Positions 962 through 33,313 of a stretch of 35,061 bases of DNA are shown here, one piece after another (the stretch's first letter is position 1; every line of letters starts with the position of its first letter). This DNA is from a virus. Its lineage: Duplodnaviria; Heunggongvirae; Uroviricota; Caudoviricetes. The stretch lies in the IMG/VR virus record IMGVR_UViG_2654587570_000013, positions 1-35,061 of that record, one strand, 5' to 3'. The notes beneath the pieces were generated by a model. That model worked only from the letters and a program-made list of their open reading frames with translations. It had not been told where the DNA came from and ran no database searches. Made by a program: the position numbers and the translations under genes.

Positions 962-998
962 GCCCCTATCGTTATAATACGCGGTAGGGGCGTTTTTG
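962..998 (+). terminator. putative rho-independent terminator
   Basis: GCCCCTA ... TAGGGGC stem followed by gttttt gttt. Confidence 0.5.
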
Positions 999-1010
999 TT
1001 TGGAAATGGT

Positions 1011-2690
1011 ATGAAAACTAAACTGTATTCGTATATTCGCTTCTCGTCTATGCGTCAGAATGATGGTTCGAGTTATGAACGACAAATCAGGATGGCGAGA
1101 GAGGTTGCGGCAAAGTATGACCTTGAACTGGTAAATGATTATCAGGATCTGGGTGTATCTGCGTTTAAGGGTGCTAACTCTAAAACAGGGGCGCTATCTC
1201 GTTTCCTTGATGCAATTGGTAGATCCGTTCCTGTTGGTAGCTGGCTATTCATCGAGAACTTGGACCGTTTATCCCGTGCCGATATTGTCAGTGCGCAGGA
1301 GTTATTCCTTTCAATAATCCGTAGGGGGATAACCATTGTTACTGGCATGGATAACAAGATCTACTCGCTGGATACTGTTACCGCTAACCCGATGGACCTG
1401 ATGTTCTCCATCCTTTTATTCATCCGTGGTAATGAGGAAAGCCAGACTAAGCGCAATCGTACTAACTCAAGCGCATTGATTAAGATTAAAGCTCATCAAG
1501 AAAATCCACAAAATCCGGCAGTGGCTATCGAGGAAGTTGGAAAGAATATGTGGTGGACTGATACCACTTCCGGTTATGTGTGTCCCGATCCGGTCTTCTT
1601 CCCTATTGTTCAGGAGGTTGTGGAATTACGCAGGAATGGACGGTCTACCGCCGAGATACTGGATCACCTTAACGCGACATATACACCACCACCAGCCGCA
1701 AGTCACAAGAGGCATTCAAACTGGTCACGAGCAATGATTGAAAGGTTGTTCCATACCCGCGCTTTGATTGGTATCAAGGAAATCTCTGTAGATGGCGTTA
1801 AGTATGAGTTAAAGGATTATTACCCTCGTGTGCTAGATGACGCTGAGTTTTATCACCTTAAGAAAAGCATTGGTGTTAGAGCATGTAACTATGGAGACAA
1901 AGAAGAAGCTAAACCGATCCCCCTGCTTAGTGGTGTTAATCTGCTGAAATGTGAACATTGCGGTTCCGCTATGGTTAAGGTGAAAGGAACTAACAAACGG
2001 CCTAACCAATATCGTTATTCATGCGATGCAATGCGCTCTAGTCGTATTGCATGTGTGCATACAAACTGGAGTTTTCGAGGTGATCAATTAGAGAAAGCTG
2101 TATTGCAATTGCTGGCTGATAAAATCTGGATTGCTGAGGATAAGGCTAATCCTGTTCCGGCTTTGAAAGTACAGATTGATGAGATATCACGCAAGATTGA
2201 TAACCTGATTACCCTTTCTGCTATGACTGGAGCAACGAAGGAGTTAGCCGACCAGATTACTACCCTCAATAGCGAGCGTGAAACACTCTATAATCAGATT
2301 AAGATGGCAGAAGAGGAAATGTATTCTGTGGACTCTCAAGGCTGGGAGAAGCTCGCAGAATTTGATTTAGAAGATGTTTATAACGAGGATCGCATTAAGG
2401 TCCGGTTTAAGATTAAGCAAGCTCTAAAACGGATCGGGTGTAGCAGGATTGACAAATACAAAAACTTGTTTGTATTGGAATACATTGATGGCAAGACCCA
2501 GAGAGTTGTAATAGAAAATTCAAGAGGACCGAGGAAAGGACAAATCTTTGTCGATTTGAAAACTATCAATGATAGGCAGATTCTGGAGAGTAACGGGCTT
2601 GTTCTGCATCCATGTTTAGACATGCTGACAGATAAAGACTGGAAGCCAGAAGAGGAAATACCAGGTCCATTACAGGAATTTGGAATTTAA
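1011..2690 (+). CDS. large serine recombinase (probable integrase)
   Basis: N-terminal resolvase-type catalytic domain with YIRFSSMRQ serine motif, a recombinase domain, a Cys-rich zinc ribbon (CEHCGS...C..C) and a C-terminal coiled coil. Start placed at MKTKL; the ORF track begins 15 nt earlier at 996. Confidence 0.85.
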   Translation: MKTKLYSYIRFSSMRQNDGSSYERQIRMAREVAAKYDLELVNDYQDLGVSAFKGANSKTGALSRFLDAIGRSVPVGSWLFIENLDRLSRADIVSAQELFLSIIRRGITIVTGMDNKIYSLDTVTANPMDLMFSILLFIRGNEESQTKRNRTNSSALIKIKAHQENPQNPAVAIEEVGKNMWWTDTTSGYVCPDPVFFPIVQEVVELRRNGRSTAEILDHLNATYTPPPAASHKRHSNWSRAMIERLFHTRALIGIKEISVDGVKYELKDYYPRVLDDAEFYHLKKSIGVRACNYGDKEEAKPIPLLSGVNLLKCEHCGSAMVKVKGTNKRPNQYRYSCDAMRSSRIACVHTNWSFRGDQLEKAVLQLLADKIWIAEDKANPVPALKVQIDEISRKIDNLITLSAMTGATKELADQITTLNSERETLYNQIKMAEEEMYSVDSQGWEKLAEFDLEDVYNEDRIKVRFKIKQALKRIGCSRIDKYKNLFVLEYIDGKTQRVVIENSRGPRKGQIFVDLKTINDRQILESNGLVLHPCLDMLTDKDWKPEEEIPGPLQEFGI

Positions 2691-16327: not shown

Positions 16328-19300
16328 TTACCCTAATTTAGCTTCAATTGCAGCAAGACGTTCACGAAGAAGTTTATTTTCTTCGCTCATTTCTTGGACC
16401 GCTTTAATTAAAAGCGCGTTCACTGCGGAGTTTGAAATTGTTAAAATTTCTTCTGGGTTATCAAAACCACCAATTTTTGCGGTTTTAACAGCTTCCGGTA
16501 ATACCTCTTGTAAATCCTGTGCGATAATACCAATCTCATGACCTATAACTTCTCGGTCATTAAGAGATTTAACTTTATCGTAGGTTTTAACTTTGAGTTT
16601 ATTTACCTTATCCACCGCATTTTCTTCGTAATCTTCAACATTAATTTTCAGACGACGATCGGAACGAATATAAACATCGTTAAAGTTACCATTACCAGGA
16701 CAGTAAAAAGTACCATCATGATGGAACTCGAATACAGCTTGAGGGTGACCAGCCGCTGGCGATGCCTCCGCAGATCCAACACGAATAATTGCTTGCCCCC
16801 AATTTTGAGGAACACGACGCATACCAAAATCGACGGCAGTTGTATACCCTTGATTGGTGATTAAACTTCTTCCTTTGATAATCGGATAATAACAGTCCGG
16901 TGAAACATAGCCATGATCGACAAATATTGGCGCTTCTAAGCCCCATTGATCACCCCAACCTCCAGATTGGCTAGCAGTCCAACGTTCACCATGAACATAG
17001 AATCGAACGTTATTGACATGAGTCATTTCGACACCTTTTGGACTTAGCGCGATATCCCCCGCGTTTGTAATATTGATAGCAGCATTAGTAGCATAGCTAT
17101 AGAACGCTAATCCATTATCAGCACCACCTTTACCGATATACCAGTTGTTATTATCAGCACAAGTACCCAACAAATATATCGACGAATCGCCCGTTTCGGC
17201 ATTCATGATGATTGCGTCAGAACCACGATTAACTTTAAGTTTCCCGAAGAAGGTGTTTTTAATGGTATTATCACCCAATCGTTCAAATTCGGCTAAAAAT
17301 CCTTTTGAGTCACGAAGGCTTAAAACGTTATTTCGACCTGTATTGCTTGCCCCCCAATGGACGAGTTCCATATAGTCCATAGATTGACGAGAACCAGCTT
17401 TAAAGAAAAGATTGTCCTCAAGACGAGTGCTACCATCAATTCCAAGATGCAAACAGCGTGCGGTCGCTGTGCCACCTAGATCTAATCCACCACCAGCAAA
17501 ATCATAACTAAATGGTCTACGGCTATTCCACCCACCGAAAGAATCACCGTGATCTGTGGAAAGAATATGGAAGCTAGTTCCATCATTACGGAACATCAAA
17601 CCATAATTACCACCTTTAACAGCCAAACGAGCATTTTCAGATAATGCAACTTCGCTATTCATTACAATTTTCTGGCCTTTACCACCAGTAATATGTAATT
17701 CACCATCTTCAATCAGGTTTATCGAGTTTTGACCGTTATCATTCCACCAAATAAAATCTTTGGTTGTTCCATCACCGAAGCCAAACCAGCCATTACGAAC
17801 ATCTTGTCCAGTGCGATAATCCATGAAATTAAAATGGCTTGATTCGTTTGGTCCTCGACGAATATCAATACCAGAATTTCCACCAACACCACCATCCAAT
17901 GTTAATCTCTTGACATGTAACCCGGTTGTTGCTGTCAGCAATAATTCCTGATTTGTATCTTCGTATCCAGTAGCAAGACGATATGCGTTATCATCAACTG
18001 TCTCATGCCAGATAGTGGCAGGAGCAGAACTACGGAAGCGACGCAACATTTTCTTAGCATTTGTTTGCTGTTCGTTCAAATGCTCAATGTCATATTGGCC
18101 TTGATGGTTTCCAGCAAAATTTAACGTTCCACGGTTGCTAAAGTTATTGAACGATGAAATGTTAAGAGCATCAAAAATTTCATCTGCAACAGGTTTTTCA
18201 CCGCCCAGGTATTCAGGAGTATCCAACAGGTTTAAAGAAACACCACCGGAAGAAACTTGATATTCTGCTAAAACAAATCCTGTATGTGCACCATAGTAAG
18301 CGTAAAGATCATAATTGTCGCCATCGGTTGGAATAGCGCAAAAATGTTGTTCATAATGCCAAATAGTATAATACGCATTGAATACAACACCTTTCGGGCT
18401 ATTGTTGCCGCATCGAATCACCAATTCGATAATATTGGCTTGTCCATTCATCCCGACGTTATAACCGTTACCACCAACTAAGCGGATCTTAGCACTACGA
18501 CCGTGTTGCTGTGGCATTGTCAAAGTGCCTAGTTTAAACCAACCACCCTCGATCCCAAAATTAAGCGTCTTCTGGAACAGTCGGTCAATTTCTGCTTTCG
18601 AATATGCGCCAATTTCGGCAGGAGTAGGTTTATCACCTTCATGATACATGCGGTGAGAATATGCCAAATGACCCAATTCATCATAGCCGTATGTTCTTAC
18701 CGTATGAACCGGATTAGACCCATAAGTGAACTCAAAGCCACGAGCATGATTAACACCAGATGGATGCGGAACATGCAAGATCATTGCAATATGACCCGCC
18801 AGGTCATTCATGCGGAATGCACCAAAGTAATCAAGATTACGCGCATTTGGATCATCAAAATAGTTTGCGGTCTTAGACAGCAAATAACCATCAGTATAAG
18901 TGTTTACGTGTTTTTTGATGTACTTGCCATCAGCAGATCCATCGGCTGCATCAATACGGCTTTCTAAGCGTGCCAATTCAGAATCAGTGTAAGACTTGTT
19001 ATTGTCAACTTTGCTATGAATTGCTGTATTTTTGGCTTCAACATCACGGGTTAATGCTGCGACGTTATCCGCTGCCTCTTGCTTATTGGCTGCAATCACA
19101 CCAGTAAGGTTATTGTAGGTGTCAGTTAACTGATTTTCCGCATAGACTTTATTTGCTGCGATAGTGCGGTCAGTTTCTGTCTTAATCAGATCAACTTTGT
19201 CATTGATTGCTTTGTCATTACTTGCGATTGTCGCGTCGGTACGGGATTTAATATCATCAACTTTTTTATTGATGCGGGTATCCAGTTCCTGGGTTGCTAC

Positions 19301-21351: not shown

Positions 21352-21386
21352 AGTTACCCCCTTTATGGAGTATTTACATACAAAAA

Positions 21387-21408
21387 AGCCCCACCGTTAG
21401 GCAGGGCT
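21387..21408 (-). terminator. weak hairpin plus T-run after the capsid gene
   Basis: AGCCC ... GGGCT stem; on the minus strand followed by TTTTTTG. Confidence 0.3.
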
Positions 21409-25693: not shown

Positions 25694-27601
25694 TTAGAAC
25701 GATGTTACCCAACTACGGCCTCTATTTGGAGGTCTGACGATGTTTTGACGTTGCGGTCGTGTGATTGGCTTAGTTTCTTCGATTTGCTCGTTAGATTGCG
25801 ATTTAGGAGCTTTTACGGGTTCTTCGACAACGCGGTTTAAGCTGTCTTTCATTGCAATGAGTTTATCCCATGACATTTTTGAAAGGACGTAGCGAGAAGC
25901 CGCATAGCTATAAACCAGACAGTCGAGAGCCTCGTTTCGGGTACTACCTGGATTTTTCACCCAACGCACGCCAGTAGTAGTACGCTTGATGGATTCACTC
26001 AAAAGCTGATCGAGATAATCATCAGGAACGGTTTCTGATATCTCTAAACCAATATGAGGATTGTCTTTCAGGTTTCTAACCAGCATTTCACGAACAGCAG
26101 ATTTACCAACGTTAACACCCAGCATAAGCAATTCATGACCACCTGTGCGGGTAGGTTTAACCGGAATCACTGGAGCATTACCAGATGAACTACCTTTGAT
26201 CGCGTGTAGGTTCTTCCACTTACCGCAAATACGGTATCCGGCTTGAGTGAATCGACCGTTCGATGTATCAAGGAAGCTGGCGAGCATAGGAACACGATCA
26301 CCCGATACAGTAGTAAATTTGGTTTTATGGAAGTTGATTAATCTATCCCATACAGGGGATTCATATCGTTCACAGTTATGATCGTAAAAGCTGCGGTGAT
26401 CCAGAATGTAAACCTTATCTTTCGCTACACCTAAGATGGTAGTTTCTGCGCGATCTAATTGCTGGTCAGTACCCGCACATAAGAAAATCACGTCATCAGG
26501 GATATTCTCGATAGAAACATCTGTTTTGAGTTGTTCCAGTTCATTTGCTTCTACTGCCGTGTCCTGATCGTCGTATACCTTGCCTAACACGGTGTTAAAA
26601 AAGGATTGTAAATCAAAGGATTGCCACGCATGACTAAAATCAACCACACAAGCGCGAATCGTGCTGAAAGGTGAATACAGACGACTGATCCAGAATCCTG
26701 CTACCTCACTTTCACGGGTTGCTCTCCACTCTCCTTGTGCTACTGCCCTGATTCGTTCCCCTTCTGTCCATGCGTTCTTACAGTGGGGGCAAATATAACG
26801 AGCGGTATCAGGATCGGGTAAGTTCTTACCATCAATGTTACGCCATTCAAATTGAACGTTTTCCCACTCGATCACCTGGTGTCTACCGCAATGAGGACAC
26901 GGAACAAAAAACATACGCATATCGCTTGATAACCATTGCTGGTTAATGCTTCCCAGCTTACTGGTCGGGGTACTGGATACGACTAATCGACCTTCATCGC
27001 CAAAGGTAGTTAAACGGTTAGCAGCCAGTGCCACCGGATCACCTTCTTCTGAGGCTGTGGCAGCATCAATTTCGTCAAGTAATCCAACCTTTGCGGTCTT
27101 ACCACGTAGGGTTGATGGGCTGGTAAGCGATACCATGTACAGGAAGTGATTCGTTTTTAACTGGAGTTGGTTGTTGTTGTTAACCGCGTTGCGATCATTC
27201 TTGTCTGTAACCACGTCTTTCAATGCATCACATGCTTCGATAGACGGTCGGATCTTACCCGCGAGATATTGAGACATTTCTTTAGCGGTTGATTGTCCGA
27301 TAATCATATTGCATGGATCGTTAGCCATCTGGTTAAACAGGATACCGTTTAGGATGGTAGTTTTTCCGATCTGCGCACTGGTCATCAGTACATACTTTTT
27401 CTTATTCTCAAGGAAAGGAGCATCAATCATGCCTTTCTGGAATGACAGCAATTTAACTTTATCCCCCGCTTGAGGACCATCTACCAGCACCATATTCGCT
27501 TCGCACCATTCAGACGGAAGGAGCTTAGGCGGTGGAGTGATATATTTTGCGGCATTTTTAAGAATCTTTTTTAATTTTGCCTTATTAGAAATCAGTTTCA
27601 T
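25694..27601 (-). CDS. terminase large subunit (lambda gpA family)
   Basis: 635 aa; Walker A-like SAQIGKTT; VPCPHCG zinc motif; C-terminal [14 protein letters not shown] resembles lambda gpA RNEALDCFVYALAA as recalled; GAGGGT SD; first gene of the leftward operon. Confidence 0.9.
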
Positions 27602-27688
27602 GTAATTACCCTCATTACGAAATATGAAGGTATTTATTAAATTATTGATATTTTGATAAATACGGGTATTAAGATTTAAGGAGGGTGT

Positions 27689-28285
27689 ATGCTAATTAAT
27701 CAGCAAGAAAGAGATGAATTAGCCTTGTCTTGTACCGATCATGAATATCGTTTACCCGTTAAGCATAAGCATTTAAAAACCGATTACACAACATCTGGGT
27801 TTAGCCGTGAGGAAGCGAAAGAGATTTTAATAGAATTTTACCGTGATAATGGCTATAGAGACGTTCATAACTTCTTTAAGAAGCATCGCACATCACAGAC
27901 AGAGTTTCAGCGAGTCCGTGAGTGGTTTGATTTTGATATCAAGCGTTATTATCGCATTGATGACGGTCCTATCTATCGGTTGCAGTGGAAGCCGATCAGG
28001 GAAGTGTTGAAACAGAAGAGATTGAATCACGCAATTACACGCTATCGTAACGAGGCTTTCAAGAAAGGCTATGGTGATACAAGGGAACTATTCGTTGAAC
28101 TCGCTAACGTGAAGTACAGCCACTATTACAACGATCCTAAAGGGTTCTTTGAAGTGCTTCGCAAGGTTGATATAAGTCGGGGTACATATTATTCACGGTT
28201 GAAGAAGTACGGGATTAAGGCAGAGTTCTTTATGTCGGTTGACGATGGAGAACTTTTTCCGATAAAATGTAAGTCCTCTAAATAA
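27689..28285 (+). CDS. protein with two copies of a small HTH-like module (putative DNA-binding regulator)
   Basis: 198 aa; AAGGAGGG SD; two internal segments ([17 protein letters not shown]...FFKK and [17 protein letters not shown]) match the module found in the two small downstream proteins. Confidence 0.5.
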
Positions 28286-28314
28286 AGGTGAACATTCACT
28301 TTAATTTGGAGAAA

Positions 28315-28548
28315 ATGACTATGACTACTAAAGCTACTCGCGGTCGCCCTACCCGTTTTAATCGTGAACAGATGGCTGATATTGCCTACGCTTACTATAC
28401 AGCGGATCGTGGTAAGGAAGCGAAAGAACAGATTCTTAGTGAACATGGGATCTCAATCGCCCAATTCTATAAGAATATGAAGAAGTTAGACATTAAATTC
28501 TATGTTCAGATCGGTGATGGTCAGATCGTAGAAGCAACAGGTTTTTGA
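28315..28548 (+). CDS. small HTH-like DNA-binding protein (paralogue family)
   Basis: Start placed at ATG 28315 after GGAG; the ORF track starts at a GTG at 28288. RGRPTRFNREQMADIAYAYY ... GISIAQFYKNMKKLDI parallels the 31655 protein. Confidence 0.5.
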   Translation: MTMTTKATRGRPTRFNREQMADIAYAYYTADRGKEAKEQILSEHGISIAQFYKNMKKLDIKFYVQIGDGQIVEATGF

Positions 28549-28556
28549 TTCTCTTT

Positions 28557-28581
28557 GCCACTCTTCGGAGTGGCTTTTTTG
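28557..28581 (+). terminator. rho-independent terminator (UUCG tetraloop)
   Basis: GCCACTC-TTCG-GAGTGGC followed by TTTTTTG. Confidence 0.6.
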
Positions 28582-28707
28582 TATGTAAAACAATCGGCGC
28601 AAAACTGCGCTCATCTCTAAGTTGAGTCCAAATCTGGACTGATCTATAGATGCATCCAAATCTGGAGGGATGTGCTTAACTTTCAGCGCATCTACAGATA
28701 CAAAAAA

Positions 28708-28726
28708 GCCCCTGAAATTCAGGGGC
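28708..28726 (-). terminator. rho-independent terminator of the Rha-like operon
   Basis: GCCCCTGA-aat-TCAGGGGC 8-bp stem; T-run on the minus strand. Confidence 0.55.
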
Positions 28727-28734
28727 AAAAATTA

Positions 28735-29577
28735 TTACAGTCCGAAGGCTTCCAGAGTTCCGATATTCTTACGAATCAGTGCAGCCGTATTGTTGATAAT
28801 TGCACGAGCATTGTTTGGCTGCGGTAATTTCAAAGTTGCTACCGTCTCTTCCTCAATCAAGCCCAATTTAACCAGCACTGGTAAACAGTCAGTTGTGAAC
28901 TCAAGCTGACCATGTGCTGATTGTCGAGCGTACATGTAAGCAGGAGGAAGAACATCATAGCCGTTAGGCTTACCAGAAGCATCCAGACGACGCTCAATGT
29001 GTTTAGCCTCACATAATCCCTTAAGAATACGTTGTACCTTCGTAGAGCCTCGTTTTTCGCCTAATAAGCGGGTGAGACTGTGTGCGTCAATGGCACGTCT
29101 GATGTGGAGATCAACTAAACGTTTATTTTCGCGGGTTTTCTCTAATGCCAGTTCGATCCAATCGGTTTCTTCAAAGTGTTCATATGGATTAACCGGAACA
29201 TTAGCTTTACCTTCTTTCATCAAACGCCATTCTTTAGCAATTTTGAAGCGAAGCGGTGCATCGTATCCCATAACCAGAGTATTACAGAGATCTTCATCCA
29301 GTTCATACATCGGTTTATTACGATTCAGAGAATCTTTATAAGTCGTTTCTTTATAAAAACCGATGGGCGCAAAATTGCGCTCATCTCCTCCGACCAGTTT
29401 GCTACCCTTTTCAAGCGAATCAACCATATTACGAAAATCACGCATAACATCTTTATGATTCTTTCCGGTTAATTCCGCGATCTGCAAAGTAGACATGGTC
29501 AGCGGTTTGGTGTTATCAACAACCAGAGACACGGAAGCAGGTTTAATAGCAGTATTCATAGTAGTAACAGTATTCAT
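28735..29577 (-). CDS. Rha-family phage regulatory protein / antirepressor-like
   Basis: 280 aa; N-terminal LTMSTLQIAELTGKNHKDVMRDFRNMVDSL matches the Rha-type N-terminal DNA-binding signature. Confidence 0.6.
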   Translation of the reverse strand: MNTVTTMNTAIKPASVSLVVDNTKPLTMSTLQIAELTGKNHKDVMRDFRNMVDSLEKGSKLVGGDERNFAPIGFYKETTYKDSLNRNKPMYELDEDLCNTLVMGYDAPLRFKIAKEWRLMKEGKANVPVNPYEHFEETDWIELALEKTRENKRLVDLHIRRAIDAHSLTRLLGEKRGSTKVQRILKGLCEAKHIERRLDASGKPNGYDVLPPAYMYARQSAHGQLEFTTDCLPVLVKLGLIEEETVATLKLPQPNNARAIINNTAALIRKNIGTLEAFGL

Positions 29578-29666
29578 AGTAAAATCCCCCTTAAACGGTT
29601 TAGTGATGATCCTCCTAGTTCCGGCATCACTACCGGAACAATTTTATTTATAAAGAAATTTTTATC

Positions 29667-29813
29667 TCATTTAGATTCAGCAATCGCGCGATCAATTTCT
29701 TCTTGAATGCGACGCTGGCGTTCATGGAAGTCAACCATTGAGAAATTCAGGTTTGGGGTCCACGGTTTGCGGTTCGGGTTTTTACGTCCATCAATTTTCT
29801 TAGTAGTGTTCAT
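29667..29813 (-). CDS. small basic protein (48 aa), speculative
   Basis: Translation MNTTKKIDGRKNPNRKPWTPNL...; AAGAGGA SD; lies between a near-consensus promoter and the Rha-like gene. Below the ORF-track cutoff. Confidence 0.35.
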   Translation of the reverse strand: MNTTKKIDGRKNPNRKPWTPNLNFSMVDFHERQRRIQEEIDRAIAESK

Positions 29814-29871
29814 AATTAACATCCTCTTTACAAATCTAGGTCAAATAGGTTCAAAGTTGTCAAGTGCGATA

Positions 29872-29935: not shown

Positions 29936-30394
29936 TTACAGCATATCTAAGCCTTCATCATGGCCGTAGAAGCCACCGTGAGAAGAGAAACAGATTGGTG
30001 CGTAGTCGTCGTCATCTTCGTCTTGTTCATCTTGTTCTGGGGCTTCCTGAGCGGGTTGTTTGCCGTAATCAGCCATAATCTGGTCAAGATCAGCGATCCC
30101 ATAGTAAGAGCCTAAATCAACGTCATATTCACGAACATCAAACGGCAGGTCATCACGAACAATAATTGCTGGAATATCGTTGTATTGAAGACGACCTTCA
30201 TCAGTAAGACAGTCGATGATCACAGTAGGACGACCATTTCGTTTTAAAGCGTAGAAAGCAGTTGAGTAGTTGGAGTCTTCGGAATGACGAATGATGTTAT
30301 AACCACGATTAGCGAAAACTTCTAGCATATGGAAGTTACCATAGTTTTCAGAGTCCAGACCCAGAAGTACGAAAGGAGTTTTAGTATTGATCAT
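29936..30394 (-). CDS. hypothetical protein with acidic C-terminal tail
   Basis: Start placed at MINTKTP, which has a GAGGA SD; the ORF track extends to 30424. 152 aa with a DEQDEDDDD tail. Confidence 0.5.
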   Translation of the reverse strand: MINTKTPFVLLGLDSENYGNFHMLEVFANRGYNIIRHSEDSNYSTAFYALKRNGRPTVIIDCLTDEGRLQYNDIPAIIVRDDLPFDVREYDVDLGSYYGIADLDQIMADYGKQPAQEAPEQDEQDEDDDDYAPICFSSHGGFYGHDEGLDML

Positions 30395-30967
30395 AGTGGT
30401 ATCCTCTAAAAGAAAGTGAATCAAACAAATTACACTAGTATTTATACGAGAAAAAAATATCTATTTGGAAGTGATTGGATTCAGTCGGCTTCGCCTCCTT
30501 CATGATTTTGATTAAATCATCATCAAAACGAAGGAGTATCTTTAGAATATAAGAATCTTTCTTTTGGAGAAATAATAATCAGGAAGCAATTTGGCAACCG
30601 AAGGTTGCAATCCCGAAGGGATACCAATACCTTTCTAGAAAGTGATTGTTACTCACTTCGTTCGTTTACTAGAATCAGTTAGTAACTAGCATTAAATCCC
30701 TTTCTAAGAAAATCCTTTCAAAAGTGAGTGAACGCCGTAGGCGTGAACGTGAGCGAAGCGAACTATCCAATCCCTTTCGAATCCTGCTTGCAGGTCTTAG
30801 AAGGTGTTGATGGGCGCTTCGCGCACGGCTACGCCGTATTCTTTTTGCGAGATCTTTCTTGAACGTAGTGAGAGAAAACGAGCAAAAAGGAGAACGTTAG
30901 TTCGAATTTTATATTCTATGGTCTGTGGGGTGAAATGTTTTTCAAGATCATACACTTATGAGATTGA

Positions 30968-31950: not shown

Positions 31951-32946
31951 ATGAAAAATTCTAAGCGCATCACCTTCAACCTGTTTATTAAATCCAACGG
32001 CAAACTGAACATTACCGTCATGGAAGGTAAAGCAAGCAAACAAGACAAATCCTTTGAAGTAGTATCCGGTAAGACTCTGACCGAAATGCGTCAGAATGCT
32101 GGCATCAAAGACGGTGCTGAATGGCAGATCACTAACCGTTTCGACAAACGTCACGTTAAACCTACACTGGTAGAAGGTGAATCCGTTTATTGCTTCGCTC
32201 GTGCTGTTAAAGCCGATGAAACTTACTATCTCGCTGTTGTTAAAACTGCTTCCGGCTTCCGTGCTGTAATGCATCACAAGAGCAAGCGTAACGAATACGG
32301 CGTAGAGACCCAGGAAGTCGCAAAACGCTTCCGTACTGTTGCTACCGAATCCACTGTAAAGGATGTTTCTGGTACTGTTAACACCGCTAAAGGCGGTTCC
32401 TTCTACAACCACGCATTACAGGTTACTTCCTCCTTCTTCTGCAAAAAAGAAGCACAGAAAGAAGTTTCTCCGGTAGTAGTTGAAGAAGTTAAAGAAGAAG
32501 TTGCAGTGGTTGAATCTTCCGAAGTTGAAGCACTGAAAGCACGCATTGCTGAACTGGAAGCTGAAAACGCATCTCTGAAAGCTGAACTGGCAGCACAGGA
32601 AACCACTTTCGAAGTAGCAGCGGTTGAAGTTGAAGCAGTTGAAGAAAAATCCATTGATGAAGAACTGGAAGAACTCCTTAACTATCGCTGGGGTGTTGTT
32701 GCAGAAGTAGAACAAGAAGTTGCTCCGGTAGTTGTTCCGGTTGAAGTTGAAAAAGAATCCGCACCTGTTACTAACTTTGAATCCCTGCGCAATAACTTTA
32801 TGGCTAAATTCAAAACCACTTGGGAAGATACCGAAGAAGAACAAGAAGAGATTGAAGTAAACGAAGACGAGATCCGCGAAGCACAGATGGCACTGCATGA
32901 CGCTATCTACGACACCAACTACAGCGCCTACGCATACGCAGCTTAA
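31951..32946 (+). CDS. abundant acidic coiled-coil protein of unknown function (early region)
   Basis: 331 aa; globular N-terminal ~170 aa followed by a Glu/Val/Ala-rich coiled-coil and acidic tail; very strong optimal-codon bias (cgt, ctg, ggt, gaa); AGGAG SD. Confidence 0.7.
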   Translation: MKNSKRITFNLFIKSNGKLNITVMEGKASKQDKSFEVVSGKTLTEMRQNAGIKDGAEWQITNRFDKRHVKPTLVEGESVYCFARAVKADETYYLAVVKTASGFRAVMHHKSKRNEYGVETQEVAKRFRTVATESTVKDVSGTVNTAKGGSFYNHALQVTSSFFCKKEAQKEVSPVVVEEVKEEVAVVESSEVEALKARIAELEAENASLKAELAAQETTFEVAAVEVEAVEEKSIDEELEELLNYRWGVVAEVEQEVAPVVVPVEVEKESAPVTNFESLRNNFMAKFKTTWEDTEEEQEEIEVNEDEIREAQMALHDAIYDTNYSAYAYAA

Positions 32947-32961
32947 TAGAGGGGTGAATCT

Positions 32962-33204
32962 ATGATGAATCAAAACAAAGAATTTCTGGGTAATCTGATG
33001 TTAGAAATTACCAAAATGAAAGAAAGAATGGTAGCGATGGAATCAGAGATTAAAACTCTTAAAGCTGATAATAAGGCGTTGAGAAAGTCCTTAAAGCTGA
33101 TTGATGAGACTAATGCGGTTATGATGGATCATGTATTCCCTGAGTGGCGAAATGAAACTAAACCTACACAACATAAGAAACTTACACTTCGAATTGTTGC
33201 ATAA
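32962..33204 (+). CDS. small coiled-coil protein
   Basis: 80 aa; AGAGGGG SD; heptad-like pattern (MKERMVAMESEIKTLKADNKALRKSLK). Confidence 0.5.
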   Translation: MMNQNKEFLGNLMLEITKMKERMVAMESEIKTLKADNKALRKSLKLIDETNAVMMDHVFPEWRNETKPTQHKKLTLRIVA

Positions 33205-33210
33205 AAAAAA

Positions 33211-33228
33211 GGGACTCCGAAGAGTCCC
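33211..33228 (-). terminator. hairpin terminator (UUCG loop on the minus strand)
   Basis: GGGACTC-CGAA-GAGTCCC; an 8-nt A-run on the plus side gives a T-run on the minus transcript. May also stop rightward transcription. Confidence 0.45.
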
Positions 33229-33313
33229 TAGTAAGTTTAGGTTAGGTTTGCACAACAAAGATGAGGTTATAATGAACATAATGCTACATTATTCTTTAAA
33301 GCCAGAAAAATAA

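What the first reader, a model, noticed from the sequence alone, without database searches (positions are those of the whole stretch)
28595..29387. A 22-bp palindromic element present twice, once intergenic and once inside the Rha-like gene
GGCGCAAAA(C/T)TGCGCTCATCTC occurs at 28595-28617 (intergenic) and 29365-29387 (inside the Rha-like ORF) with 21 of 22 positions identical. It contains the inverted repeat GCGCA-N4-TGCGC. Such conservation between a coding and a noncoding copy is unlikely by chance and suggests a protein-binding site or a recombination or processing signal.
Basis: seen in the sequence. Interest (0 to 1): 0.5.

Follow-up and report, generated by a model that had tools for sequence, protein, structure and literature searches.

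The report
Rha regulator's operator, in-gene and duplicated
The repeated 22-bp element is two copies of the DNA site that this E. coli prophage's Rha regulator is predicted to bind: one lies inside the Rha gene itself, which proves to be the norm for the large, poorly understood Rha family, where three residues of the recognition helix predict the bases of the site.

Summary
GGCGCAAAA(C/T)TGCGCTCATCTC occurs at 28596-28617 and 29366-29387 (21/22 identical), nowhere else in the window, and no shuffle reproduces it.

The core is a 14-bp palindrome, GCGCA-N4-TGCGC. The coding copy lies 54 nt downstream of the codons for the Rha recognition helix (H41-K42-D43-V44-M45-R46), in a segment that encodes a low-confidence loop.

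Most Rha genes examined carry a perfect palindrome xxx[C/G]A-N4-T[G/C]xxx at this place: E. coli prophage alleles, about 100 unrelated viral and metagenomic genes, and P22 rha. It occurs in all three codon registers and encodes unrelated peptides.

Its bases track three helix residues:
- Position 6: R gives C; A or V gives G.
- Position 3: D gives G; H gives C; N gives T.
- Position 2: K gives G; D gives C; small residues give A.

On an independent set the rule predicted 51/51, 49/50 and 47/50 bases. I therefore read the palindrome as Rha's own operator; binding itself is inferred.

The intergenic copy is the first unit of a polymorphic array of 28-bp operator-like palindromes between two convergent terminators. 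The units carry several Rha specificities. This unit is a copied gene fragment, and its pairing with the matching Rha here is no more frequent than chance.

What binding achieves (autoregulation?) and why the array exists remain unknown.

The parts
29366..29387 (.). Coding copy of the 22-bp element. The core palindrome GCGCA-AAAT-TGCGC is at 29367-29380 and the extended imperfect palindrome GATG-g-GCGCA-AAAT-TGCGC-t-CATC at 29362-29385. On the minus (coding) strand it encodes G-D-E-R-N-F-A-P, Rha residues 63-70. I predict it to be the self-operator of the Rha protein.
   Evidence: codons GAT GAG CGC AAT TTT GCG CCC; palindromes at the same codon position in other alleles; helix-to-base code; residues 63-70 have pLDDT below 50.
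28596..28617 (.). Intergenic copy (unit P1). The core palindrome GCGCA-AAAC-TGCGC is at 28597-28610. It is the first unit of the operator-like array and matches the resident Rha helix type (K-D...R).
   Evidence: The same unit is present in relatives L046, L047/49, L052, L056, L057 and L068, which carry other Rha alleles.
28576..28595 (.). Left flank of P1, homologous to the Rha coding sequence downstream of the palindrome (codons for I-G-F-Y-K). It shows that P1 is a fragment of about 42 nt from a W-type Rha gene, abutting terminator T1.
   Evidence: 42 nt at 81% identity; the same-frame translation reads DERSFAPIVLHTK; the W3 allele matches the slot of L045/L074 over CAATCTGAGCA... and TGTATA.AAA.CAATC.
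28625..28640 (.). Array unit P2: AGTCCA-AATC-TGGACT, a perfect palindrome. Its half-site GTCCA is the type found inside Rha alleles with helix H-K-H-V-x-R.
   Evidence: It matches 23/26 nt of the GTCCA-allele coding segment, flanks included.
28654..28667 (.). Array unit P3: ATCCA-AATC-TGGAG, with one mismatch. Half-site ATCCA is the H-[A/C/F/S]-H-V-x-R type. It lies 28 bp from P2.
   Evidence: (D3).
28672..28689 (.). Array unit P4, degenerate: GTGCTTA-ACTT-TCAGCGC. Its right half plus flank (TTTCAGCGCATCTA) is identical to the coding segment of the GCTGA (H-K-N-V-x-A) allele.
   Evidence: 14/14 match..
28735..29577 (-). Rha-family gene (280 aa). It is mosaic, with a conserved leader, a variable DNA-binding module and a variable C-terminal half.
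   Evidence: PF09669, 62.4 bits, residues 28-121; mosaic alignment; PHROG anti-repressor/Rha families.
29440..29457 (-). Codons for H41-K42-D43-V44-M45-R46, the start of the second helix of the helix-turn-helix. K42, D43 and R46 are the residues that predict half-site bases b5 = G, b3 = G and b2 = C (GCGCA).
   Evidence: sequence; AF2: helix 30-37, turn, helix 41-61, pLDDT 87-89; code.
28557..28580 (+). Intrinsic terminator T1 of the convergent gene pair p198/p86. It forms the left border of the variable spacer ('slot').
   Evidence: Conserved in all related loci.
28703..28726 (-). Intrinsic terminator T2 of the Rha gene. It forms the right border of the slot.
   Evidence: Conserved or replaced by alternative terminators in relatives.

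Best explanation
Both copies carry the cognate binding site (operator) of the Rha-family protein encoded at 28735..29577. The site is a 14-bp palindrome, GCGCA-N4-TGCGC.

Inferred mechanism: a Rha dimer binds double-stranded DNA, and each helix-turn-helix reads one 5-bp half-site (b5 b4 b3 b2 b1 = G C G C A, numbered from the outside towards the centre). Position 2 of the recognition helix (K42) specifies b5 = G. Position 3 (D43) specifies b3 = G. Position 6 (R46) specifies b2 = C.

The copy inside the gene is the family-typical arrangement. The operator sits a few tens of nucleotides downstream of the codons for the helix that reads it, in DNA that encodes a tolerant surface loop. Specificity and target therefore form one small cassette that recombination can swap as a whole. 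Its most likely use, which is inferred and not shown, is autogenous control: bound Rha would obstruct transcription through its own gene.

The intergenic copy arose as a copy of a fragment of about 42 nt from such a gene. It is the first unit of a polymorphic tandem array of 28-bp operator modules, of the form TAGATG-n-half-site-N4-half-site-n-CATCTA, that carry several different Rha specificities. The array lies in the hypervariable spacer between two convergent terminators. Because its 10 half-site bases are identical to the intragenic site, the resident Rha should bind it too. That match appears fortuitous rather than designed.
For: 1. Position-locked palindromes with different sequences. 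In 35 syntenic E. coli prophage loci, at least six Rha alleles carry a perfect palindrome with a 5-6-bp stem and 4-nt centre at the same codon position: GCGCA, GTCCA, GCTCA, ACGCGA, CGCTGA and AATCCA.

2. Generality.
- 44 of 48 distinct Rha genes from unrelated viral contigs have a perfect palindrome of at least 5 bp (up to 11 bp) within 90 nt after the helix motif. Control windows gave 6-14 of 48.
- Distant homologues P0010 and P0011 (39-42% identity) carry GCGCA palindromes there.
- P22 rha has GCGCA-TTTT-TGCGT at 39812, the only such site in P22.

3. Not a protein constraint. The palindrome occurs in all three codon registers (12, 11 and 27 cases). The same half-site is encoded by unrelated peptides, for example GCGCA by ERNFAP, GADLR and AQFCA.

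4. Recognition code in 39 clusters.
- Helix position 6: R gives b2 = C in 35/35; A or V gives G in 4/4.
- Helix position 3: D gives b3 = G in 9/9; H gives C in 12/12; N gives T in 16/16.
- Helix position 2: K gives b5 = G in 16/16; D gives C in 8/8; A, S, F, G or C gives A in 13/13.
- Each association has permutation p <= 5e-5, and the mismatched residue-base pairs are not significant. The code is therefore modular and is not a haplotype effect.

5. Independent tests.
- In the P22 clade, H-A-D-V goes with (G/A)CGCA and H-Q-H-V with (A/G)CCCA.
- In 80 metagenome loci the code predicted b3 in 51/51, b2 in 49/50 and b5 in 47/50 cases. Excluding 9 near-duplicates of the first set, the figures are 42/42, 40/41 and 38/41.

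6. Structure model. The AF2 model has helix 30-37, a turn, and helix 41-61 with pLDDT 87-89. The palindrome-encoded residues 63-70 have pLDDT below 50.

7. Origin of the intergenic copy.
- Flank homology to Rha coding sequence.
- Other array units match the operator segments of other alleles with their flanks: 21/21, 24/26, 23/26 and 22/24.
- The units have a 28-bp period.
Against: - No binding experiment exists. Binding is inferred from covariation alone, and dimerisation is assumed from the site's symmetry.
- The function of intragenic binding is untested. In 49 of 53 diverse loci no second site lies within 700 nt, so there is no promoter-proximal operator to support a conventional repression model.
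- Some alleles with the motif lack a perfect internal site: the S-N...R alleles of the E. coli family, and 16 of 68 genes in the test set.
- A cognate unit sits in the slot in only 2 of 21 loci, which equals the chance expectation. Nine of 35 relatives have an empty slot. The intergenic copy is therefore dispensable, and the two-copy arrangement is not a conserved design.
- Any palindrome can also fold as an RNA hairpin (-12.9 kcal/mol for the coding copy), so an additional RNA-level role is not excluded.
- The fold search gave no significant structural relative.
Confidence: 0.75

Rival explanations
1. The intergenic copy is only a non-functional relic: a short leftover or duplicate of a Rha gene fragment produced by recombination in a hypervariable spacer. 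The two-copy arrangement then has no joint function. This is compatible with the coding copy being Rha's operator; it rivals only the idea that the pair works together.
For: P1 carries about 15 extra nucleotides of Rha coding sequence and reads DERSFAPIVLH in the Rha frame. The slot is a moron insertion site that varies from 87 to 820 bp and is empty in 9 of 35 relatives. The cognate unit co-occurs with the matching allele at the chance rate, 2 of 21. Several units are degenerate, including P3, P4 and the hybrids in L045 and L066.
Against: Apart from the first unit's extension of about 15 nt, the units retain exactly the 28-bp palindromic module and nothing else of the gene, and they abut head to tail. 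Random deletion would not leave that pattern. The inner palindrome of P1 is perfect in every locus that has it, while its flanks vary (TCATCTC, TCATTTC, TCATCTA). All units keep the orientation of the Rha gene.
Confidence: 0.45
2. The element acts as a nucleic-acid hairpin rather than a protein site. Candidate roles are an intragenic attenuator or terminator, an RNase processing site in the Rha mRNA and its 3' region, or a DNA cruciform.
For: Stems vary between alleles while pairing is kept, which is the classic signature of structure. The coding copy folds at -12.9 kcal/mol (z = -2.3) and the whole slot at about -38 kcal/mol (z = -3.4 to -4.8). P1 on the minus strand is flagged as a weak terminator-like site. 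In several alleles a T-rich run follows the hairpin. Some relatives use a terminator built on a GCGCA-N4-TGCGC core.
Against: A hairpin model does not predict that stem bases follow the identity of three residues in the protein's recognition helix, with 98-100% accuracy on new sequences. Pairing is Watson-Crick perfect for up to 11 bp, and wobble pairs are not notably used. The T-run is absent in some lineages, for example P0011.
Confidence: 0.1
3. The palindromes are origin iterons and the Rha-like protein is this prophage's replication initiator, as with lambda O and ori-lambda, which lies inside the O gene.
For: The site lies inside the gene of the protein that reads it, it is type-specific between alleles, and a tandem array with a 20-28-bp period lies nearby. 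No recognisable replication gene was found among the window ORFs scanned. P22, in the same record as rha, has its origin annotated inside gene 18.
Against: There is only one site inside the gene. The array is absent in a quarter of relatives and mostly carries non-cognate specificities. Pfam finds only Phage_pRha and no initiator domain. P22 carries rha in addition to its own O-like initiator and origin. From my recollection, rha is dispensable in P22 and phi80.
Confidence: 0.07
4. The spacer holds the packaging site (cos or pac), and the palindrome is part of it.
For: The spacer lies about 1 kb upstream of a GpA-type large terminase gene. No small terminase subunit has been identified.
Against: Nine of 35 relatives with 88-100% identical terminases have only about 20 bp between the two terminators and no palindromic unit. 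The palindrome type does not track the terminase allele.
Confidence: 0.02
5. The element is a host or mobile intergenic repeat (REP-, BIME- or MITE-like) that also landed in a gene, or the match is chance.
For: The units are small palindromes in tandem between convergent genes, which superficially resembles REP/BIME arrays.
Against: No genome among 185,579 species representatives has more than one exact copy, and none of the hits is related. No shuffle gives a match. The coding copy is ancestral to the Rha module: RNFA/DERNFA and its codons are shared by diverged alleles, including one from Salmonella.
Confidence: 0.02

Closest known systems
Lambdoid replication initiators with their origin inside the initiator gene (lambda O / ori-lambda; P22 gene 18)
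   Same: The DNA-binding protein's type-specific, dyad-symmetric binding sites lie within its own coding sequence, so specificity and target are inherited together. Alleles in related phages have different sites. P22's record annotates rep_origin 32840-32984 inside gene 18, 32488-33303. The lambda details are from established knowledge and were not checked here.
   Different: Here a single site lies inside the gene, not four tandem iterons. The protein is a Phage_pRha family member, not Phage_rep_O. The neighbouring array is dispensable and mostly non-cognate. There is no evidence of replication function.
Terminase small subunits whose pac site lies inside their own gene (P22 gene 3)
   Same: A helix-turn-helix protein's recognition site is embedded in its own ORF. 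P22 pac at 4-25 is annotated within gene 3. Rha genes sit next to the packaging genes in P22 and here.
   Different: Rha is not a terminase subunit. P22 has both genes. The site is a short perfect palindrome, and the array is absent in close relatives.
Lambdoid repressor-operator immunity modules (lambda, 434, P22 c2) and their recognition-helix readout
   Same: A dimeric helix-turn-helix protein reads a palindromic operator with an AT-rich centre. A few residues at the start of the recognition helix set specificity, and alleles with distinct specificities circulate among recombining phages. In 434 repressor these are helix positions 1, 2 and 6 (from memory); here they are positions 2, 3 and 6.
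   Different: The operator lies inside the coding sequence rather than in a promoter region. There is usually one site, not a tripartite operator. The residue-to-base mapping is unusually simple and additive. The regulatory output is unknown.
Intragenic auxiliary operators and transcriptional roadblocks (e.g. lac O2 within lacZ, PurR within purB) - from established knowledge
   Same: A regulator's site within a transcribed coding region can block elongation or loop to a second site. This is the mechanism I favour for the Rha self-site.
   Different: Those sites lie in target genes, not in the regulator's own gene next to the helix codons. No looping partner is conserved here.
Iteron or decoy arrays next to the gene of the protein that binds them (e.g. 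P1 incA downstream of repA) - from established knowledge
   Same: A tandem array of short binding sites lies immediately downstream of the gene for a DNA-binding protein.
   Different: In those arrays all units bind the same protein. Here the units carry different predicted specificities and rarely match the resident protein.
T4-type PeSL cassettes and lambdoid module-boundary sequences (short repeated stem-loop motifs at mosaic junctions) - from established knowledge
   Same: Short hairpin-capable repeats lie in a hyperplastic intergenic slot that gains and loses small ORFs.
   Different: There is no associated promoter. The units are copies of an intragenic operator of a neighbouring gene, which has not been described for PeSLs.

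Membership tests
Rha family protein (Pfam PF09669, Phage_pRha) | Significant match to the family HMM over the N-terminal domain | tested here: met
   62.4 bits against a cut-off of 29.9, residues 28-121 on profile positions 1-90 of 91. PHROG anti-repressor and Rha-like families match at E = 3e-17 to 7e-9.
Rha 'self-operator' (pattern defined here) | A perfect palindrome xxx[C/G]A-N4-T[G/C]xxx within about 20-90 nt downstream of the codons for H-x-x-V-x-[R/A/V]-D-I | tested here: met
   GCGCA-ATTT-TGCGC on the coding strand starts 53 nt after the motif. The same pattern is present in 44 of 48 viral genes and 52 of 68 metagenomic genes.
Rha 'self-operator' (pattern defined here) | Half-site bases b5, b3 and b2 are predicted by helix positions 2, 3 and 6 | tested here: met
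   K42, D43 and R46 predict G..GC., and the observed half-site is GCGCA in both copies. The code was validated on independent sets.
Rha 'self-operator' (pattern defined here) | Physical binding of the protein to the site | not testable with these tools
   This needs EMSA, footprinting or ChIP. No solved structure of a homologue exists by sequence, and the fold search was uninformative.
Lambda-O-type origin inside the initiator gene | Several tandem iterons inside the gene followed by an AT-rich segment | tested here: not met
   There is a single palindrome in the gene and generally a single site within 700 nt on either side in other Rha loci.
Lambda-O-type origin inside the initiator gene | The protein belongs to an initiator family and is followed by a helicase-loader or helicase gene | tested here: not met
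   Only Phage_pRha was detected. Of the neighbouring ORFs, p51 (29667-29822) and p162 (29936-30424), on the upstream side of the Rha gene, and p86 and p198, in the opposite orientation on the far side of the slot, have no such domains.
cos/pac packaging site | Present in all functional relatives that share the terminase | tested here: not met
   The slot is empty in 9 of 35 syntenic loci.
REP/BIME-like host repeat | Many dispersed copies in the host chromosome | tested here: not met
   The genome-contig scan found single, unrelated hits only. The region occurs 1-2 times per E. coli genome that carries it. The strain's own chromosome could not be scanned for the short motif.
Intrinsic terminator / attenuator | A GC-rich stem followed directly by a U-run on the transcribed strand, conserved among homologues | tested here: inconclusive
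   P1 on the minus strand is flagged with a 5-bp stem. T-rich tracts follow the hairpin in several alleles but not in P0011. The hairpin energy is -12.9 kcal/mol.
Known RNA family (Rfam) | Match at or above a family's gathering score | tested here: not met
   There are no gathering-level hits in the window. Only sub-threshold, terminator-driven hits occur near the slot.

The most novel reading that the evidence does not exclude
Rha-family proteins form a large class of 'self-addressed' phage DNA-binding proteins. Their one conserved target is a palindrome inside their own gene, read through a simple additive three-residue code. The arrays of foreign-specificity operators kept downstream of the Rha gene in this E. 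coli prophage family would then be functional: they would let a prophage sense, titrate or exploit the Rha proteins of competing or co-resident phages, a form of phage-phage cross-talk. They would not be recombination debris.
Probability: 0.15. Interest if true: 0.9.

Novelty: new variant of a known kind. Interest (0 to 1): 0.78.

Why it matters
Rha (PF09669) is one of the commonest 'regulatory protein' or 'anti-repressor' annotations in temperate phages. As far as I know and could find, it has no defined DNA target or mechanism; four full-text searches that ran (a fifth was rejected with a syntax error) returned nothing relevant.

If the inference holds, three things follow:
- Almost any Rha protein gets a predicted binding site, readable directly from its own gene.
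- The family offers a compact residue-to-base code (helix positions 2, 3 and 6 to bases 5, 3 and 2). The code can be tested by point mutation and could supply sets of orthogonal repressors.
- Specificity and target travel as one small swappable cassette, which fits the mosaic alleles seen here.

It also raises a concrete new question: why one prophage family stores tandem copies of operators of several specificities between two terminators.

Tried and rejected
- Gene relic only. I first read the intergenic copy as a pseudogene remnant, because the same frame gives DERSFAPI and L010 has a second Rha-like ORF in the slot. I kept this as the origin of the unit but not as the whole story.
- cos site. 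Rejected, because the slot is empty in 9 relatives.
- Host repeat. Rejected.
- Known phage or RNA family. Megablast against GenBank phages found nothing. Protein-level hits were at most 45% (terminase) and 34% (Rha) identical. Rfam gave no hits and there are no tRNAs.
- Other slot units copied elsewhere in the window. Only P1 has a significant match. A 17/18 match of an L058 unit at 16794-16811 was left unexamined.
- Hairpin or structured-RNA reading. I pursued this until the residue-base covariation appeared.
- Looping pair. The idea that the resident Rha needs the second site was rejected, because cognate co-occurrence is at the chance level and most Rha loci have one site.
- Rha as small terminase. 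I considered this because a truncated Rha gene sits directly upstream of the terminase gene in L082. There is no supporting correlation between the Rha C-terminal allele and the terminase allele.
- Structure. The AF2 model is good only for residues 28-124. Foldseek against the PDB gave no hit below E = 0.4, and sequence search of the PDB gave none.
- Literature. One search call failed on syntax.
Full report
**1. The observation**

The + strand reads GGCGCAAAACTGCGCTCATCTC at 28596-28617 and GGCGCAAAATTGCGCTCATCTC at 29366-29387, which is 21/22 identical. With up to three mismatches these are the only two copies in the window, and none of 100 dinucleotide-preserving shuffles produced a match. 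The inner 14 bp form the palindrome GCGCA-N4-TGCGC.

The first copy lies between two convergent intrinsic terminators: T1 at 28557-28574 (+) and T2 at 28726-28708 (-). The second lies inside the 280-aa ORF 28735..29577 (-), a clear Phage_pRha protein (62.4 bits against a cut-off of 29.9). Ungapped similarity extends leftward to 42 nt at 81% identity.

**2. Context**

The window is an E. coli prophage.
- The exact Rha protein occurs on NCBI and Logan contigs.
- The 1.3-kb region occurs in 55 of 5,426 complete E. coli genomes, once or twice each.
- In one annotated genome the element sits next to a truncated hicB and yncJ.
- The window encodes a large serine recombinase at 996-2690 and a GpA-type terminase at 25694-27601.
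- No close relative exists among GenBank phages.

Thirty-five syntenic loci share the gene order p162 - (p51) - Rha - spacer - p86 - p198 - terminase.

**3. The spacer ('slot') is hypervariable**

Between T1 and the Rha terminator the relatives have 87 to 820 bp.
- Nine have essentially nothing.
- Some carry a small ORF. One is a 156-aa fusion of a Rha-like domain with a DUF559/Vsr-like nuclease; another is a 214-aa protein of unknown function.
- The rest carry one to about seven short palindromic units.

This rules out an essential cos site in the slot. A scan of 185,579 representative genomes for the 19-mer found only single, unrelated hits, so the element is not a host repeat. Rfam finds nothing.

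**4. The Rha gene is mosaic, and its alleles all carry a palindrome at the same place**

Alignment shows a conserved leader, a variable DNA-binding module with about ten alleles, and three C-terminal alleles.

At the six codons aligned with E-R-N-F-A-P of the window, other alleles have perfect palindromes with different stems:
- GTCCA-AATT-TGGAC (encodes ESKFGR)
- GCTCA-GTTT-TGAGC (VLSFER)
- ACGCGA-AGTT-TCGCGT (HAKFRV)
- CGCTGA-AATC-TCAGCG (ALKSQR)
- AATCCA-ATTT-TGGATT (ESNFGF)

The motif (D)ERNFA and its codons CGC AAT TTT GCG are shared by diverged alleles, including a Salmonella one. The coding copy is therefore ancestral to the module and not an insertion.

**5. The slot units are copies of these intragenic segments**

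Units match the palindrome-plus-flank segment of different alleles:
- W1 allele with P1: 21/22
- GCTCA allele with an L057 unit: 21/21
- ACGCGA allele with an L044 unit: 24/26
- GTCCA allele with P2: 23/26
- W3 allele with an L045 unit: 22/24

For W-type units the match continues into the codons for G-F-Y. This explains the 42-nt match and the in-frame reading DERSFAPIVLH.

The full module is a 28-bp palindrome: TAGATG-n-(5 bp)-N4-(5 bp)-n-CATCTA. In the slot, modules abut head to tail, which gives the 28-bp period seen in the window for P1, P2 and P3. All units are co-oriented with the Rha gene.

**6. The palindrome is a family-wide feature**

Distant homologues at 39-42% identity, from unrelated contigs, carry GCGCA-GATT-TGCGC and GGCGCA-GTTT-TGCGCC at the homologous place but in different codon registers.

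Among 48 distinct Rha genes from unrelated viral contigs, 44 have a perfect palindrome of at least 5 bp (up to 11 bp) within 90 nt after the helix-turn-helix motif. Control windows gave 6-14 of 48.

Across all sets the palindrome occupies all three registers (12, 11 and 27 cases). The same half-site is encoded by unrelated peptides, for example GCGCA by ERNFAP, GADLR and AQFCA. Protein-level constraint therefore cannot explain it.

P22 rha has GCGCA-TTTT-TGCGT at 39812, the only such site in the phage.

**7. A recognition code**

Write the motif as H-x2-x3-V-x-z-D-I and the half-site as b5 b4 b3 b2 b1, with b1 = A next to the centre. In 39 sequence clusters the associations are:

| Helix residue | Half-site base | Counts |
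|---|---|---|
| z = R | b2 = C | 35/35 |
| z = A or V | b2 = G | 4/4 |
| x3 = D | b3 = G | 9/9 |
| x3 = H | b3 = C | 12/12 |
| x3 = N | b3 = T | 16/16 |
| x2 = K | b5 = G | 16/16 |
| x2 = D | b5 = C | 8/8 |
| x2 = A, S, F, G or C | b5 = A | 13/13 |

Each association has permutation p <= 5e-5. The crossed pairs (x3 with b5, x2 with b3, z with b3) are not significant. The residues and bases therefore assort independently and map one to one. Direct readout predicts this pattern; linkage or shared ancestry does not.

The pairings are also chemically ordinary, judged from established knowledge: Arg and Lys with G, Asn with A, and Asp with C on one strand or the other.

Two independent tests agree.
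- In the P22 clade, H-A-D-V goes with (G/A)CGCA and H-Q-H-V with (A/G)CCCA.
- In 80 metagenome loci the code predicted b3 in 51/51, b2 in 49/50 and b5 in 47/50 cases. Without 9 near-duplicates the figures are 42/42, 40/41 and 38/41.

The AF2 model has helix 30-37, a turn, and helix 41-61 with pLDDT 87-89. H41-R46 therefore open the second helix of a helix-turn-helix. Residues 63-70, which the palindrome encodes, have pLDDT below 50 and are followed by a beta-hairpin.

**8. Interpretation for the window**

The resident Rha has K42, D43 and R46, which predict GCGCA. That is the half-site of both copies. I conclude that both are cognate sites for this protein, with confidence about 0.75 that Rha binds them.

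The intragenic position is the family norm. In 49 of 53 diverse loci it is the only site within 700 nt. The most economical function is autogenous control by obstruction of transcription through the gene. This step is inferred and not shown, and I give it about 0.4.

The intergenic copy is a different matter.
- GCGCA units occur next to non-cognate alleles.
- K-D...R alleles occur without a GCGCA unit.
- The cognate combination is found in 2 of 21 loci, and about 2 are expected by chance.

The two-copy arrangement is therefore not a conserved design. The array as a whole carries GCGCA, GCTCA, GTCCA, ATCCA, CGCGA, ATTCA, CCTCA and CAGCA types. It is either recombination debris that preferentially retains the palindromic module, or a functional multi-specificity set of sites. 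I cannot decide between these.

**9. Rivals**

- A pure hairpin or RNA role fits the compensatory stems and the folding energies but does not predict the protein-DNA code.
- A lambda-O-like origin shares the site-inside-its-own-gene logic (P22 gene 18). It fails on the number of sites, the protein family and the dispensability of the array.
- cos/pac, host repeat and chance are excluded as described above.

**10. Novelty**

Four full-text searches that ran (a fifth was rejected with a syntax error) for Rha together with binding-site or operator terms found nothing relevant. The library omits most subscription journals, so prior description cannot be excluded.

The principle is known: a helix-turn-helix dimer on a palindrome, and a site inside the protein's own gene as in lambda O or P22 gene 3. 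Three things appear to be new: its family-wide occurrence in Rha, the simple code, and the heterologous operator array. I rate it a new variant of a known kind, with interest 0.78.

Noticed in passing
L010 6888-7358; L069/L070 slot (same position as window 28582-28702): Some relatives carry a 156-aa ORF in the slot. It joins a Rha-like N-terminal domain (PF09669, 24.9 bits, below the cut-off) to a DUF559/MTES_1575 Vsr-like nuclease domain, an architecture like that of a free-standing homing endonuclease. L066 and L074 instead carry a 214-aa ORF with no family match.
   Followed up: partly
window 27689-28285 and 28288-28548: p198 and p86 are paralogous small proteins that share DNA repeats (repeat finder families D2, D11 and D13). 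They have no Pfam or PHROG match and are transcribed divergently from the GpA-type terminase. No small terminase subunit was identified in the window.
   Followed up: partly
window 21373-21389 (-) vs 28573-28589 (+): The 17-nt tail of terminator T1 (GCTTTTTTGTATGTAAA) recurs exactly downstream of the capsid gene region, which suggests a reused terminator module.
   Followed up: no
window 29544-29579: An 18-nt tandem duplication at the 5' end of the Rha gene (TAATAGCAGTATTCATAG / TAGTAACAGTATTCATAG) gives MNTVTTMNTA with two in-frame ATG codons.
   Followed up: no
L045, L047, L056, L057, L060 (Rha terminator region): An alternative Rha terminator, GCCCAGCGCAATTATGCGCCGGGC, contains a GCGCA-N4-TGCGC core. 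The window's own T2 hairpin, GCCCCTGA-AATT-TCAGGGGC (28708-28726), also has the xxxGA-N4-TCxxx operator format.
   Followed up: no
L091, L098, L101 (one 110-kb viral contig, IMGVR_UViG_3300031853_000009): Three Rha paralogues in one genome each have a different helix type and matching internal palindrome: K-H with GTCCA, D-N with CCTCA and F-H with ATCCA. This looks like a set of orthogonal specificities.
   Followed up: partly
L082 1501-3363: A truncated Rha gene lies directly upstream of the GpA terminase gene, with no p86/p198 pair or slot between them. This suggests the p86/p198 module is an insertion.
   Followed up: no
window 16794-16811: TGCCCCCAATTTTGAGGA, inside the 1136-aa ORF, matches an L058 slot unit (TGCCCTCAATTTTGAGGA) at 17/18 positions. 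It may be chance (E = 0.018).
   Followed up: no
window 996-2690; L078 (NZ_CM136169.1): The prophage encodes a large serine recombinase. In an annotated E. coli chromosome it lies beside a truncated hicB, next to yncJ, which suggests integration into the hicAB locus.
   Followed up: partly
window 27630-27663: A 16-bp inverted repeat (GTATTTATTAAATTAT / ATATTTTGATAAATAC) lies in the 87-bp divergent region between the terminase gene and p198. It may be a regulatory or packaging-related site.
   Followed up: no
L044, L045, L049, L055, L061, L062, L067 (Rha genes): Rha alleles with helix H-S-N-V-M-R are predicted to bind ATTCA but have no perfect internal palindrome. ATTCA units are present in the slots of other phages (L046, L052, L057, L058).
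   Followed up: partly
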